A stretch of DNA of 64,000 bases, taken from the NCBI GenBank assembly GCA_037379345.1, contig CM074516.1, forward strand, positions 34,881,626-34,945,625, in the 5' to 3' direction. This document shows, one piece after another, positions 3,001 to 9,000 of this stretch. A program made the position numbers. The DNA is from Perna viridis (lineage: Eukaryota). Each line of letters opens with the position of its first letter. The first letter of the stretch is position 1.

Positions 3001-6000
3001 GAGGTTGACCCCAAAAAGTTGATACTGTATTGACACAACATTTAAACTTGATATGGCTTCTAATTTGGATTATATTTAAATCTTTCACATGACTATGTCC
3101 AGATGGAAAGTGGTCAAAGAGCTGTGAAAATTTGCAATAAGACATAAGAAATAAGCAATTTATAAACAGTTGAAGAGATTGCCTACTTCTTACCACTCTT
3201 AAGCCCTTGATACCTAAAAGGTAAGATACATAACCCTTTAAATCCATAAAAAATACCTTTAGTGGTATAGAACTTAGTAGTATAATATCATGGAGATTAA
3301 AACATTTTTGTTCTAAGTATTGCTTGGAAACCAGACAAATGTTTGTTTTAGGTCCCTTTTGGTAGTAATAGAAGTCCAAGTAACTTAAACTTGAAGTATC
3401 ACATTTGTACCTGAATCCTTTTAAACAATGTATCTAAATTCACTAATTACAAACCTTTCATCCAGATTGGTTCAGAAGTACCACATTGTCCATTTCCTAC
3501 AGGTGTCATGGCTGGTTGGTAATCTCCCTCAAATCTGTACCATCCATCAGAGTAGGAATACGATTCACAGCCATACCCACCCATGTAGTTATAAAAGTCC
3601 ATGTGTCGGGTGTGATCATATTCTATCAGGGTATAATTATCACATGGATCCTGGGCTAGTTCTAAAAATGTATTAAAACATAATTTTAATCAACAAATGG
3701 ATGCAATGGGAATGCTGATGATGTCTTTATATTATAGGATCAACATGACATGGTGGCAAATTTCAATATTCAGAGTATTTACAGGCTACTGATAACTGTA
3801 TTCTTTCAAAAATTATTGTTTTGAATATACAATGTTGAAAATGAATGGAATAAAGAAGATAATACCTTTTTAAGTCTCTAAACGGCTCTATCTATTGTCC
3901 AAGTGATAGATTTTGTTTATGATATGTACATGGAATTTATACTGCTGTAAAAACTGTCACTGCTGAGGTCATAAAAGTTGAATAACCAATCATAATGCAC
4001 GAAAAAGTCATATGCTAATTAGATTGGAATTATTATAGTTTAACAAGGTTGATAGTCATATAACCTGCACTGCTGGTTAAATTTTACATAATAGAATGCT
4101 ATAGTTCTGTAACTCATTAAATTTGTGGTGATATGAAGTACGAATGGTATCAAACTAATCTAGAATAATTCAACAAAATCTGACAGCAACAACGTTAAAA
4201 CTGATATTAAATTTAAATTTCATAAGGATTTGAAAATACCCACCAGTGCAGTATTTGCCACAGGGTTCATAATAACTAGGAAATCTGAGTTGAGCTACAT
4301 TATAGTCCCCACAGTTCATTACAGGAACTGACCAGGTTTCATTACAGTTAGTATCATTTCCTACCATACAGGCTGTCAAGTTATACGTCTCTGCATACTC
4401 TGATGGGTACTGACCTGGAATAAACAAATATGTATACAAATTAAATTCAGTATATGTAGATATAACTACTTGTATGTCAAGACAGTTAAGTACACCTGTA
4501 TCACTGATACATTTGTAGCTTATAGTTGTGAAAGGCTGAATGCAACTGTCACAACCTGATACATGGAGATGTTTCTACACTTAACTGAAAAAAAAAAATT
4601 ACCTAAATTTATATTTTCATTGTTATAAATTATAAGTATCAGGAAAGAGCCTGAACATGATCTTCTAATAAAACTTCAGAACCTTCATTCTTAATTAATC
4701 TAAAGGAGATTTACATCACATACCAGTCACATAACACCAGATTTGAAGCTCATTCTATACAGAAACAGAAACACCTTAGTGGAAGTCTATTGAGATATTG
4801 AACAAATTAAACCAATCAAATGTCCCTGTACAATAAAGGCCATGAAACTGCATGAAAGAAAGTAAGTTGCTTCCCTTTGTTGGAACTTCACTATATCTGT
4901 GATTCTACTTCATCAGCTAATGTAATTTTTATTTGTTGGGAATGCTGGAAAGAAGGTATCTTCAAAAGTGCCTTAAGAATGTAGCTATTACTAAATCAAA
5001 CATCAAAACATCAAATTAAAAAAATATACTCACCATCCAGCCATATTGGTCTCCATGATCCACACTGTCTAGGTTCTGGTGGTGATGTTAGAATGTCACC
5101 ATCGCTAAATCTAAACCAGTTATCACTATACATGCTGCTATAAAGATAGTTCATGTTCCATTGTCTGTCACATTGTTCCATGTCACCATTCTGTAGGGTA
5201 TAGTTTACACTTCGTTCAAATCCACCCTTCAGAATATGGTGATGATGACATGGTACATCCCATGGGATATTTCCTTCCTCTGAAAAAAGATGAGATAATG
5301 ATTACTATACCATAGAATGGTGAACAAGAATTTGCGCTTACAAGGTTTTAGCTTGTAAAACCTGTAAGTTTGATTATCTCTCTATGCAGGCATCAGAAGT
5401 AACTTGACTCCTTTCAAGCAAATTTATATATGAGACAAAAACATCAATAAAATTTCTTCAAAATCCTTTGAGTGGTTCAGGAGGAGTTACACTTACAAGA
5501 TATGTGGACAGACAACTGGATGGACATGACAGACAGGCAGCCAGGAAATTCCGAAATAACCCCCCTCCCCCTCCTCCAAAAAAACCCCAAAACAAAACAA
5601 ACAAAATATTGTTTGCAGGGCTATTAAAAATACCAATTGAGAAGCCTTTTTTTAACAAAAGGATGACAATATGACTCTTAAGAGATTGTAAGAAATAATA
5701 ATCAGTAACCTTTTTACAGATAATTAGGACTCTAACCAAAGAAAATAAAATCTCTATATTTACCTAGACAGTACCGCCCACAGCTGCCTGATGACTGTAG
5801 ATGGTAAATATGATAGTCTCCACATTTCATTGTTGGTATATCCCAGGTATTGTAGCAATCCATATAAGAATACATGTCACTAGCTTCACAGGCCTTTACA
5901 TACTTTACTTCTCCATCTACTGTGGGGAGGGTGTCTGGAACAAAAAGAGGGACAATTATACACAGGTATAGTAGCAATACATATCAAAATAGAGTCAGAT

Positions 6001-9000
6001 TCACTGGATTACATATACTTACATACTGTAACTATACAGTGGGGGGATTATGAATGTTTATCTTCCTATCTGACCTAGCCTAAACATCGTCTGAATGTTA
6101 TTACCTCTTTTCTTTGCAGACAAAAATCACTGTATGTATGAAGGATGAACAACTAAATCTATAGAAATATCTGATATTCAGAAACAAATGATGGATGACC
6201 CACTGAAAAGTGTCACACATAGTTCCATCCGTCGTGCTGAAGCTACATACCAAACTTTAAGTTTTTTCTATAAAGATTGTCTATGTTTTGTGGCTGTACA
6301 AAGGTTACAGTATTGTCTAATACTAATTAATGACAGTAAACTAAATACCCCAGTAGCATTAAATCAGAGGAAAACATTGAACAACTTCATACCATTGATC
6401 CAAACAGGACTCTGTGAACCACATCTCCCTGAAGCTGTTGGTGAGGTAGCAAGACTGTAGTTTCCCTCAAATCTGTACCATCTTGAACTGAAGCTCATTG
6501 ATTCACAGCTATGTGAAGTTATTGAGTAACTGTAGTCAGAGTGACGAGATTTGTCATATTCTATAGATGTGTAATTATTACAGGGGTCTGCCTGGGCTTC
6601 TGCAATTAAAAACAATTATTCGTTAATAAAATATATTATCACTTCAATGTTTACTGTAAACTGCTCATAACCATCATTGCTGAATACCTGTTAGTCTTAA
6701 AGTTGTCATGTTAAGCATACTTCTACTCCAATTCAGTTAAGTATACTCTTACTCCTTATCAGCTAACTTGAAACTGTTTAAGTCATATGATAAACATCTT
6801 AAATAAAGAGCAAGTAAGAGATGTGCTGGGAACCCTTAAAGTGGAGATACAGCACATGTCATACAACACTACTCTGTAGAATGTGAGAAAGAATGACAGG
6901 ACCGACAAGATTATCAAAGTATAGCCCAATTCATATAACATTGCAGGGTTAATAAATGAAGGAAATTATAGAAAGCTGAATAATCAATAAAAAAATAAAT
7001 ACTAATTTTAACCATATCATTTTTACTTGCCTGTGCAGTATCGACCACAACCACTAAAATATGGTGTCAGATAGAAGGAGTTGTAACCATGGCAATGCAT
7101 AACATAAACATCCCAGGATTGTTCACAGTTAGAATCATTTCCCACCTTACAGGCTTTCATTACAGCTGTCTCTCCATACTCAGTGGGATAGGTACCTACA
7201 GAGACACAAAATAGTCAGAATCATTTCCCACCTTACAAGCTTTCATCAAAGCTGTCTCTCCATACTCATTGGGAAAGGTACCGTCAGAGAAACAAATTAA
7301 GTTTGAGTCAATCCCCACATTGTAGGCTGTCATCATAATTTGTTTTACCAATAAGCATAATAAGATGATAAAGCTCATATCATAAGGGAAAATTTCATCA
7401 AAATTTAAGGACTCATTAATAATAACTGCCTAACAATTTCAATTTCTATATAAATACATGTACAAGAGCTAAAATTCAATAATAACCCAGAAAATTCTTG
7501 CAAAAGGAAAACTTCTTATTCCATACTCAATTCACGTGAAGGAGAATTACAGATTAATTTAATAATTTCATTCCTCAATAATGCAAAAAAAAAATGTCTG
7601 TTTAGGGTTACATTCCTCCCAAAAATAGGGTAGGTCGGTCGGCATTTGCATTTTATTATTTTTTTTCATTTTATTTTTTCTCGACTAAAATTGAGCCTAT
7701 ATTTGTAAAATAGCATCATGTTTAAGTCATGAAAGTGTATGGTTTTAAGTAGAAAGTTTAATTTTTAACATACACACCTATTAATCATGTCTTTTATTAC
7801 AATACACTTATTTTTTGTAGAAATTTTGAACAAAATACAAGTACACTGTATTTACGCTTGGATTTACGTGATATAAATAAGTCTCCTATTCAAACGCTAT
7901 AGTGACCTGGTTTTTAACGTACTTTCGGTTTTACTGGAAATGATCCGTATTATATTTTGGAGAAAAAATGTATTAGGGTCTGGAGAAAAAATTAGGGTTG
8001 GTCCGGAAACCCGAAACAGACATATTTTTTTGCCCTAAGTATATAACTTACCATCGACCCATATGGGTGACCTTGACCCACACTGCAGTTGAGATGGTGA
8101 CCAAGTCAGCAAGTTTTCACTGGTACCAAATCTATACCATTGTTCCATATCAATATCATTCATGCCCATATAGTAACCATGGTAACTGTCACAGTATTCC
8201 TGTTCTCCAGGTTGGAGAGTATAGTTTACCAGTCTATTAATACTACTGGAGATGTAGTTGTAGGAATGACAGGGAGTTGTCCAACTTCTCTCCCAGGTTG
8301 TGTTCTGTGCTTCTGTAAAAAATGATAAGATTTACAGATGACAACAGTAAAGGCTAATTGAAACATTCATGTAGATATATCATCTCCACCTTTCTTGAGC
8401 ATTTGTTTTCACTACAAAGCAGCATTTCTACAAAATCACTTGAAGATAGTAAGGGCTGTTAAAAGTCTTTGAGTATTTTAGAAATTTTGTTACTGGATAA
8501 TTTAAACAGCTCTCTAGGTAGAAATCTGCCCTATATTATACCAAAGTGTCCTACTTATTTACCACTGAAAACCTTGTGATCTTTTGGACACTGTCTTTTA
8601 TATGTGAATAGCTGTCAATTATGTTGACCATAACCTCTCTATTGTATCATCCACAAGTATGATTGGGTAGCTTGTCCTCTACATTTAAATGATTTACTTG
8701 TTACTGATTGGATAACATTGTTTTTTCAAATTTAAATATTCATACTAATGGGTAAACAAAGGCTATTTTAAGATTTTAATTGAATGTTAGTTAAAAGTTC
8801 TTTTAAAAAAAATTATATGCACATTCATACTTGACATTCTAAAAATGTGTAAATTTTAAGTAATGCTGTGTGTAATAAATGTCTGAGATGGTCCCTAGGT
8901 GTTCACTAATCATTCAATTAATACAACTCACTGAGGCAACTCAAATCATTGCTAAACCATTTTGAGGCATCTCAAATATATTTTCACAGGAAACCAAAGA

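What the first reader, a model, noticed from the sequence alone, without database searches (positions are those of the whole stretch)
4230..8319. Recent 4-kb ~99% identical tract whose ends fall at exon edges
4230-8319 matches 25026-29119 including introns, a MITE, acceptor echoes and the GC donor. Identity ends ~7 nt into the intron at the E60/E36 acceptor (ttctgtaaa|aaat vs ttctgtaaa|ggtt) and near the E65/E41 donor. The block spans a higher-order-repeat junction. Inference: a long conversion or unequal-crossover tract initiated and resolved in exons, the only homology available, i.e. homogenisation caught in progress.
Basis: partly seen in the sequence, partly recalled or inferred. Interest (0 to 1): 0.65.

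Follow-up and report, generated by a model that had tools for sequence, protein, structure and literature searches.

The report
Young six-exon conversion patch in repeat gene
Two neighbouring repeat units of a giant gene share a 4.1-kb, 99% identical patch of six exons and five introns that starts and stops in exons; this is most likely a recent copy-and-paste repair event between the units, a clean example of a known process.

Summary
4229-8319 matches 25025-29119 at 99.2% over 4096 columns (26 substitutions, 5 indels), and identity falls to background within 30 nt at both ends.

The patch lies in a minus-strand gene with 70 phase-1 exons in the window. These exons encode D8C-like (uromodulin/GP2-type) half-domains. 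They are arranged in two 24-exon, roughly 20.8-kb units with identical exon-length patterns, plus a partial third unit.

The patch covers exons E60-E65 and their in-register twins E36-E41, together with the five introns between them. Outside it:
- In-register exons are 76-97% identical, with mean dS 0.33.
- 18 of 18 in-register intron pairs align no better than unrelated introns.

Exons are therefore the only homology available. The patch runs to the outer edges of its two terminal exons. About 0.15% of random 4.1-kb segments would do so.

The best reading is one recent, in-register, non-allelic gene conversion (gap repair) anchored in exons. A single unequal crossover does not fit.

An assembly artefact cannot be excluded without reads. 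One database ORF (P0001) joins the copy-B upstream intron and this exon to a different downstream intron. The patch may therefore be polymorphic or mis-assembled.

This is a new member of a known kind, of moderate interest.

The parts
4229..8319 (-). Copy A of the near-identical patch (unit 1): exons E65-E60 plus introns I64-I60
25025..29119 (-). Copy B of the patch (unit 2): exons E41-E36 plus introns I40-I36
4244..4414 (-). E65 (type B, 171 nt), terminal exon at the 3' end of the patch. Its twin is E41 at 25040-25210. The pair differs at 2 sites, both in the last 8 nt before the donor.
5034..5279 (-). E64 (type C, 246 nt). Twin E40 at 25832-26077. 1 mismatch.
5764..5934 (-). E63 (type D, 171 nt). 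Twin E39 at 26562-26732. 0 mismatches.
6393..6599 (-). E62 (type A, 207 nt). Twin E38 at 27191-27397. 0 mismatches.
7031..7195 (-). E61 (type B, 165 nt) with a GC donor. Twin E37 at 27829-27993. 0 mismatches.
8052..8312 (-). E60 (type C, 261 nt), terminal exon at the 5' end of the patch. Twin E36 at 28852-29112. 1 mismatch, at 8277, 36 nt from the acceptor.
4229..4251 (-). Left boundary zone (twin 25025-25047). It has 3 mismatches in 23 nt (4240, 4248, 4251). At all three, copy B agrees with the third-unit exon E17, so these are native paralog differences and the converted stretch ends just inside them.
8277..8319 (-). Right boundary zone (twin 29077-29119): the last mismatch, then the shared acceptor motif, then unrelated intron
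7127..7296 (-). 86-nt x2 tandem 'echo' of the E61 acceptor plus the first 69 nt of the exon. Twin at 27925-28094.
7586..8031 (.). 446-nt element with 24-nt inverted ends (92% complementary), starting 20 nt after the E60 donor. Twin at 28384-28831. A candidate MITE, not verified.
157..21276 (-). Repeat unit 1 (E70-E47, 24 exons)
21457..41385 (-). Repeat unit 2 (E46-E23, 24 exons). Its exon-length pattern is identical to unit 1.
42591..63744 (-). Partial third unit and older repeats (E22-E1). E16-E22 are 79-96% identical to their in-register partners.

Best explanation
The patch is the product of one recent, in-register, non-allelic gene conversion (double-strand-break or gap repair) between two adjacent 24-exon units of a giant gene built from D8C-like domains.

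Proposed course of events (inferred):
1. A break in one unit was repaired from the neighbouring unit.
2. The two ends found homology only in exons, namely E60/E36 and E65/E41.
3. Everything between these exons, including five unrelated introns, was copied from the donor.
4. Heteroduplex in the two anchor exons was corrected towards the donor almost to their outer edges, where homology stops.
5. The two copies have since diverged by about 0.64%.

What is shown and what is inferred:
- Shown: the patch, its sharp ends at exon edges, its register, and the lack of any intron homology elsewhere.
- Inferred: the repair pathway, the direction, and whether the patch is fixed. The direction is tentatively unit 1 as donor and unit 2 as recipient.
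For: - The patch is real and sharply bounded: 99.2% over 4096 columns against about 40% in the flanks.
- It is in register. Offsets of flanking exon matches are 20.2-21.1 kb against 20,796 for the patch, and both units have the same 24 exon lengths.
- Outside the patch, 18 of 18 in-register intron pairs have local-alignment scores of 132-375, within the range of out-of-register controls. The 5 of 5 pairs inside score 2119-4193.
- Of 2346 intron pairs in the window, only these 5 exceed 1000.
- Outside the patch, flank identity drops to about 0.30 within 10-20 nt of exon edges.
- The terminal exons are almost fully converted. E60/E36 shows 1 mismatch in 261 nt and E65/E41 shows 2 in 171 nt. In-register exons of the same types elsewhere are 87-94% identical, which would predict roughly 19 and 14 mismatches.
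- Only 86 of 59,497 random 4091-nt segments (0.14%) have both ends this close to outer exon edges. The acceptance windows were set after seeing the data.
- Differences are evenly spread (KS P=0.87), at 0.33% in exons and 0.77% in introns, as expected for a single event followed by drift.
- Derived features are shared by both copies: the GC donor, the echo repeat and the element with inverted ends.
- Synonymous divergence of in-register exons outside the patch is heterogeneous (chi-square P=0.004 for 17 pairs; 7e-10 for all 18). At a mean dS of 0.33 it is far lower than the unalignable introns imply. This fits repeated exon-limited exchange in the array.
Against: - No reads, second assembly or population data could be examined, so a mis-assembly is not excluded.
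- The copies differ by 0.6-0.8%, which is also a plausible allelic divergence.
- It is the only block with intron homology in the window, and it is very young. There are no events of intermediate age. That is unexpected if long conversions were regular and usually became fixed.
- P0001 is a 169-aa ORF from a separate 2200-nt contig. It joins the copy-B upstream intron flank (17 of 18 residues) and this exon to 58 residues of read-through that match nothing in the window (best E 0.26). At least one other sequence therefore disagrees with the window at the 5' junction of copy B.
- The direction of transfer and the repair pathway are not shown by any search.
Confidence: 0.7

Rival explanations
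1. Assembly artefact. The two copies would be the two alleles of a single locus, one of them threaded into the paralogous unit because the assembler switched paths inside near-identical exons. The true sequence of that unit would be missing from the assembly.
For: - Divergence of 0.64% plus 5 small indels is compatible with allelic difference.
- Switch points in repeated exons are where an assembly graph branches.
- P0001 shows the copy-B upstream flank and this exon joined to another intron.
- The patch is the only intron-homology block in the window, and it is very young.
Against: - The window has no N.
- It resolves long minisatellites, for example the ~1.1-kb array at 13718-14864. That suggests long reads, which would span a 4.1-kb block and its unique flanks.
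- Both copies are embedded in unique, colinear flanks on both sides.
- The switch at the 5' end would have to lie within 36-43 nt, and the one at the 3' end within about 8-25 nt of the exon edge. These overlaps are short for an assembler.
- P0001 comes from a 2200-nt contig that may itself be chimeric or come from another unit.
Confidence: 0.15
2. The same outcome was reached by another route: two successive unequal crossovers in opposite directions, or replication template switching (fork stalling, break-induced replication) that jumped to the paralogous unit in one exon and back in another.
For: The end product is identical to a conversion patch, with both ends in exon homology. Nothing in the sequence separates these pathways.
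Against: - Two independent crossovers are less parsimonious than one repair event.
- No microhomology-only junction, insertion or inversion typical of template switching is seen at either end. The ends lie in 171-nt and 261-nt stretches of homology.
Confidence: 0.1
3. The patch is a relic. The two units would be a very recent duplication, and the other 80% of the unit would since have been overwritten from more distant copies.
For: Exchange between non-equivalent positions does occur in the array. E69 and E70 are closer to E61 and E62 (95% and 87%) than to their in-register partners (87% and 76%).
Against: - It requires many overwriting events covering 18 introns.
- None of the donors are visible. 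Introns outside the patch have no relative anywhere in the window.
- In-register exons outside the patch remain each other's closest relatives.
Confidence: 0.03

Closest known systems
Interlocus (non-allelic) gene conversion between paralogs, with tracts sometimes extending into introns (review of Caenorhabditis paralogs, PMC3966223; passages read)
   Same: Both show a high-identity patch in otherwise diverged, colinear paralogs. The review states that diverged introns are expected to impede conversion and that a minority of events include introns.
   Different: Here the tract is long (4.1 kb) and crosses five introns of 431-858 nt that were presumably unrelated before the event. It also lies between repeat units inside one gene rather than between separate genes.
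Intragenic segmental duplications of giant repeat genes: the human nebulin triplicate region (8 exons repeated three times) and the titin duplication region (PMC9109913 and PMC9142044; search listing and abstract openings only)
   Same: Both are multi-exon blocks, introns included, repeated at very high identity inside a gene made of modular symmetric exons. In the human genes they are prone to copy-number change and exchange.
   Different: In those genes whole blocks are tandem copies. Here a 6-exon patch sits inside two much older 24-exon units whose remaining introns are unrelated. The gene family and the organism also differ. No copy-number data exist here.
Concerted evolution of tandem exon or domain arrays, such as the LPA kringle IV-2 repeats and spider silk genes with homogenised introns (recalled, not checked in any call)
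   Same: Repeat units are kept alike by unequal exchange or conversion, and introns can be carried along.
   Different: In those arrays introns are homogenised array-wide. Here only 5 of 23 in-register intron pairs between the two units are alike.
D8C / decoy-module domain of uromodulin and GP2 (structure paper PMC8930769, search listing and abstract opening only; PDB 7p6r matched)
   Same: Each pair of exons carries eight invariant cysteines. The profiles of the two exon halves match consecutive parts of GP2, residues 33-94 and 98-150.
   Different: The vertebrate proteins have one such domain next to EGF and ZP modules. This gene has at least 35 in tandem within the window, and no other module was seen in the window.

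Membership tests
Non-allelic gene conversion tract | A patch of much higher identity, bounded on both sides, within colinear paralogous sequence | tested here: met
   99.2% inside against about 40% in global-alignment flanks. The patch is in register with flanking exon matches.
Non-allelic gene conversion tract | Homology available at both ends of the tract | tested here: met
   Both ends lie in exons of 171 and 261 nt. Exons of these types are 87-94% identical between units elsewhere.
Non-allelic gene conversion tract | Divergence inside the tract is much lower than for the surrounding duplicated sequence, giving discordant ages | tested here: met
   0.64% in the patch. Outside it, mean dS is 0.33 for in-register exons and the introns are unalignable.
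Non-allelic gene conversion tract | Non-reciprocal transfer with an identified donor and recipient, or discordance with orthologues in an outgroup | not testable with these tools
   No eukaryotic genome collection, reads or outgroup locus was available. P0001 only hints that unit 2 was the recipient.
Assembly or haplotype duplicate | The copy is next to a gap or contig end, or lacks unique flanks | tested here: not met
   The window has no N. Both copies have unique, colinear flanks on both sides.
Assembly or haplotype duplicate | Abnormal read depth, or no long read spanning a copy together with its flanks | not testable with these tools
   No read data were available.
Assembly or haplotype duplicate | An independent sequence of the locus disagrees with the window | tested here: inconclusive
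   P0001 has the copy-B upstream flank and the exon, followed by a different downstream intron. Its DNA could not be fetched, and it may come from another unit or be chimeric. P0018, P0026 and P0033 agree with the window at 96-100% identity, but they lie outside the patch.
D8C (uromodulin/GP2-type) domain | Eight conserved cysteines per domain | tested here: met
   There are 3 invariant Cys in 17 type-A exons and 5 invariant Cys in 32 type-B/D exons. Type C also has 3.
D8C (uromodulin/GP2-type) domain | Sequence similarity to a solved member | tested here: met
   The A-exon profile matches GP2 33-94 (E 2.8e-7). The B/D profile matches GP2 98-150 (E 0.03). The C profile matches GP2 37-94 (E 0.16, weak).
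D8C (uromodulin/GP2-type) domain | Match to Pfam PF23283 above its cut-off | tested here: not met
   0 of 6 single-exon peptides matched any Pfam family. 6 of 11 scanned database relatives of exon E62 carry PF23283.
MITE | Terminal inverted repeats, a target-site duplication and many copies in the genome | tested here: inconclusive
   24-nt inverted ends at 92%. No clear target duplication. No further copy in the window. The genome was not available.

The most novel reading that the evidence does not exclude
The patch may be a segregating structural allele, with P0001 representing the unconverted unit-2 haplotype. That would be homogenisation literally caught in progress.

Under this reading the whole array is held together by exon-anchored gap repair. 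Short events keep exons alike, and rare long events swap whole foreign introns between repeat units. Most long events would be lost again, which would explain why the only one visible is so young.

The reading also predicts that the anchor exons were already near-identical before the event. P0001's exon is 100% identical in protein to E60. Long runs of perfect identity would then decide where such events start and stop.
Probability: 0.3. Interest if true: 0.55.

Novelty: new member of a known kind. Interest (0 to 1): 0.4.

Why it matters
The patch is an unusually clean natural example of how recombination between repeat units behaves when homology exists only in short exon islands. The tract uses two exons as arms, carries five unrelated introns with it, and stops where homology stops.

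The locus also shows synonymous divergence far below intron divergence across a 24-exon repeat unit. That points to exon-limited concerted evolution in a giant gene built from D8C-like domains. If the patch is polymorphic, the locus would allow direct measurement of tract length, direction and fate of such events.

For annotation and assembly, near-identical multi-exon patches inside diverged repeat units are places where short reads mis-map and exon counts can be wrong.

Tried and rejected
- **Exon models.** Two automatic attempts gave wrong or no models and were dropped: nearest AG/GT in phase and alignment to a reference exon. Searches replaced them with a conserved donor motif plus the acceptor of expected length. 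E17 was fixed.
- **Pfam on single exons.** 0 of 6 hit.
- **Word-index protein searches.** Exon E60 with 'longer' found only P0001. Exon E62 with 'longer' found nothing. P0001 with 'near' found only itself. The organism and further junction-spanning ORFs therefore could not be obtained.
- **The listing of cluster members.** It was switched off, so no names or sources are available for P0001-P0014.
- **P0001 as an 'empty site' allele.** I tested whether it simply lacks the element with inverted ends. Its last 58 residues match nothing in the window, including the sequence beyond the element (best E 0.26), so this was rejected.
- **An older long event including intron I69/I61.** Beyond about 110 nt next to the exon, identity is only 0.56-0.60, which is too weak to count.
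- **Transposon ORFs.** No open frame of 110 aa or more, other than exon read-throughs and minisatellite frames, gave any sign of one (no family search was run on them).
- **RNA genes.** No Rfam family and no tRNA was found.
- **Single unequal crossover.** Rejected on logic: it gives one junction and a whole-unit change, not a bounded patch.
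Full report
**Observation.** The window (64,000 nt, 34% G+C, no N) was compared with itself. The strongest hit is 4229-8319 vs 25025-29119: 99.2% identity over 4096 columns, with 26 mismatches and 5 gap openings. In a global alignment with 600-nt flanks, 100-nt bins read 0.97-1.00 inside and 0.35-0.45 outside, and only the two edge bins are intermediate. The differences are listed. They comprise 17 transitions and 9 transversions, are evenly spread (KS P=0.87), and run at 0.33% in exons (4 of 1221 nt) and 0.77% in introns (22 of 2870 nt).

**Context.** The region is one gene on the minus strand. 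tblastn with four exon peptides found a strictly repeating series of four exon types. With a conserved donor motif and the acceptor of expected length I obtained 70 exons.
- All have AG acceptors. 68 have GT donors and 2 have GC donors.
- All are multiples of 3 nt, have open frames, and are flanked by phase-1 introns.
- The order along the gene is C-B-A-D. Types A and C encode the first half of a domain, and types B and D the second half.
- Exons E70-E47 (157-21276) and E46-E23 (21457-41385) have the same 24 exon lengths in the same order. E22-E1 form a partial third unit plus older repeats.

The patch is therefore six exons (E60-E65 = E36-E41) plus the five introns between them. It lies in register between two 24-exon units. 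The patch offset is 20,796 nt, and flanking exon matches are offset by 20,177-21,076 nt.

**What the gene encodes.** Single exons give no Pfam hit (0 of 6). Profiles built from single-exon alignments match the solved N-terminal module of GP2:
- 17 type-A exons match residues 33-94 (E 2.8e-7).
- 32 type-B/D exons match residues 98-150 (E 0.03).
- 15 type-C exons match residues 37-94, weakly (E 0.16).

There are three invariant cysteines in A (or C) and five in B/D, making eight per domain. An exhaustive HMMER search with exon E62 found 47 proteins at E<=1e-3. Of the 11 I scanned, 6 carry PF23283 (D8C_UMOD), together with ZP, EGF or SRCR modules. The two closest, P0002 and P0003, carry no family above its cut-off.

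The gene thus encodes a long tandem array of D8C-like domains, with at least 35 in the window. Nothing suggested a human origin.

**Background between the two units.** In-register exon pairs outside the patch (18 pairs) are 76-97% identical. Summed over them, pS=0.264, dS=0.33, dN=0.048 and dN/dS=0.15. Synonymous divergence differs between exons more than chance allows (chi-square P=7e-10 for 18 pairs; P=0.004 without the outlier E70/E46).

The introns behave quite differently:
- All 18 in-register intron pairs outside the patch give local-alignment scores of 132-375, no higher than out-of-register controls. The five inside give 2119-4193.
- Among all 2346 intron pairs of the window, only those five exceed 1000. 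The next (939) is an exon-derived echo array.
- Anchored at exon edges, identity between in-register flanks falls to about 0.30 within 10-20 nt, the same as for unrelated exons of the same type.

A dS of 0.33 would leave neutral introns about 73% identical and easily alignable, so exons must have been exchanged or homogenised separately from introns. This last step is inference.

**The ends.** At the 5' end of the patch (high coordinates) identity stops 7 nt upstream of the E60/E36 acceptor. Those 7 nt are the acceptor motif common to this exon type, so they say nothing about the tract. The last internal difference is at 8277, 36 nt inside the exon.

At the 3' end, identity runs 15 nt past the E65/E41 donor, but with three differences in the last 23 nt (4240, 4248, 4251). 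At all three sites copy B agrees with E17 of the third unit. They are therefore old paralog differences, and the converted stretch ends about 8 nt before the donor.

Both terminal exons are converted almost entirely. E60/E36 shows 1 mismatch in 261 nt and E65/E41 shows 2 in 171 nt, where exons of the same types elsewhere are 87-94% identical. Only 86 of 59,497 random 4091-nt segments (0.14%) have both ends this close to outer exon edges, although the acceptance windows were chosen after the fact.

**Mechanism.** A single unequal crossover would give one junction and a gain or loss of a whole unit, so it does not explain a patch bounded on both sides. The simplest account is one repair event in which a broken unit was mended from its neighbour:
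1. The ends could pair only in exons.
2. The intervening 3.7 kb, with five unrelated introns, was copied from the donor.
3. Mismatch correction of the paired exons ran towards the donor up to the point where homology ends.

Two opposite crossovers or replication template switching would leave the same product. The shared GC donor of E61/E37 (related exons E69, E45, E21 and E13 have GT), the shared 86-nt echo repeat and the shared 446-nt element with inverted ends show that the two copies are identical by descent, not by constraint.

**Against, and the main rival.** Without reads I cannot exclude that one copy is a misplaced allele.
- The 0.64% divergence would suit alleles.
- The patch is the only intron-carrying block in the window and it is very young. 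If long events arose steadily and were kept, older ones should be visible up to perhaps 25-30% divergence, and none is. This is a rough argument. It points either to an artefact or to events that are usually lost.
- P0001, a 169-aa ORF from a separate 2200-nt contig, begins with the copy-B-specific upstream intron flank (17 of 18 residues) and continues through the exon. The exon is 100% identical in protein to E60, including the residue at which E36 differs. It then reads into 58 residues that match nothing in the window (best E 0.26).

Somewhere, then, the copy-B upstream flank and this exon are joined to another intron. P0001 could be the unconverted allele, the true unit 2, a unit outside the window, or a chimeric contig. 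Its DNA could not be fetched.

Several points speak for the window:
- It has no gaps and resolves long minisatellites, which suggests long reads.
- Both copies have unique flanks on both sides.
- Three other database ORFs agree with it at 96-100%, though they lie outside the patch.

I put a real conversion-type event at 0.7 and an artefact at 0.15.

**Comparison with what is known.** Non-allelic conversion between paralogs is well documented. A review of Caenorhabditis paralogs states that diverged introns are expected to impede it and that only a minority of tracts include introns (PMC3966223, passages read). Multi-exon blocks repeated at very high identity inside giant modular genes are known from human nebulin and titin (PMC9109913 and PMC9142044; listing and abstract openings only).

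Array-wide homogenisation in LPA and spider silk genes is recalled, not checked. One literature search for concerted evolution of repeated exons returned a single unrelated paper, and I did not search further. I therefore make no claim that exon-anchored tracts of this kind are unreported.

The finding is a new member of a known kind. It is a clean, well-bounded case in an unusual gene, of moderate interest (0.4).

**Left open.** The following remain open:
- the organism
- reads and depth
- the DNA of P0001
- other units of the gene outside the window
- transcripts
- the joined-domain Pfam test

The closed collections were not queried, and supplements were not needed.

Noticed in passing
window 7127-7296, 27925-28094, 22222-22554, 43241-43591, 19710-19983, 32094-32246, 52964-53277, 45399-45827, 23375-23787, 13718-14864: Many exon edges carry tandem 'echo' arrays whose unit contains a splice site plus part of the exon. 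Units are 50-116 nt with up to 8 copies, and one array spans about 1.1 kb. They create rows of pseudo-acceptors or pseudo-donors next to the real site.
   Followed up: partly
window 7029-7030 and 27827-27828 (minus strand): E61 and E37 use a GC donor (gcaagt). The related type-B exons E69, E45, E21 and E13 have GT.
   Followed up: yes
P0001 vs window 29173-28841 and 8319-8041: An ORF from a separate 2200-nt contig joins the copy-B upstream intron flank and exon E36/E60 to a downstream read-through that is absent from the window. It is the only independent sequence touching a patch boundary.
   Followed up: partly
window 157-938 vs 6393-7195: E69 and E70 are closer to E61 and E62, eight exons away (95% and 87%), than to their in-register partners E45 and E46 (87% and 76%). 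About 110 nt of adjoining intron is also similar. This looks like an older out-of-register exchange.
   Followed up: partly
window 42591-56075: The third unit matches the other two well only for E16-E22 (79-96%). From E15 upward identity drops to 65-87%, so the repeat is triplicated over 7 exons and duplicated over 24.
   Followed up: partly
window 7586-8031 and 28384-28831: A 446-nt element with 24-nt inverted ends (92%) starts 20 nt after the E60/E36 donor. The window holds no other copy, and no clear target duplication was seen.
   Followed up: partly
whole window, in-register exon pairs: Synonymous divergence between units (mean dS 0.33, range 0.09-0.59 without one outlier) is far lower than the fully unalignable introns imply, and it differs significantly between exons. 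This suggests exon-limited homogenisation across the array.
   Followed up: partly
window 49339-53199: Intron I16 is 3.86 kb, by far the longest in the window. It shares weak matches with several other long introns, with scores of 430-645 against a median of 161. This may be dispersed repeat content, and it was not characterised.
   Followed up: no
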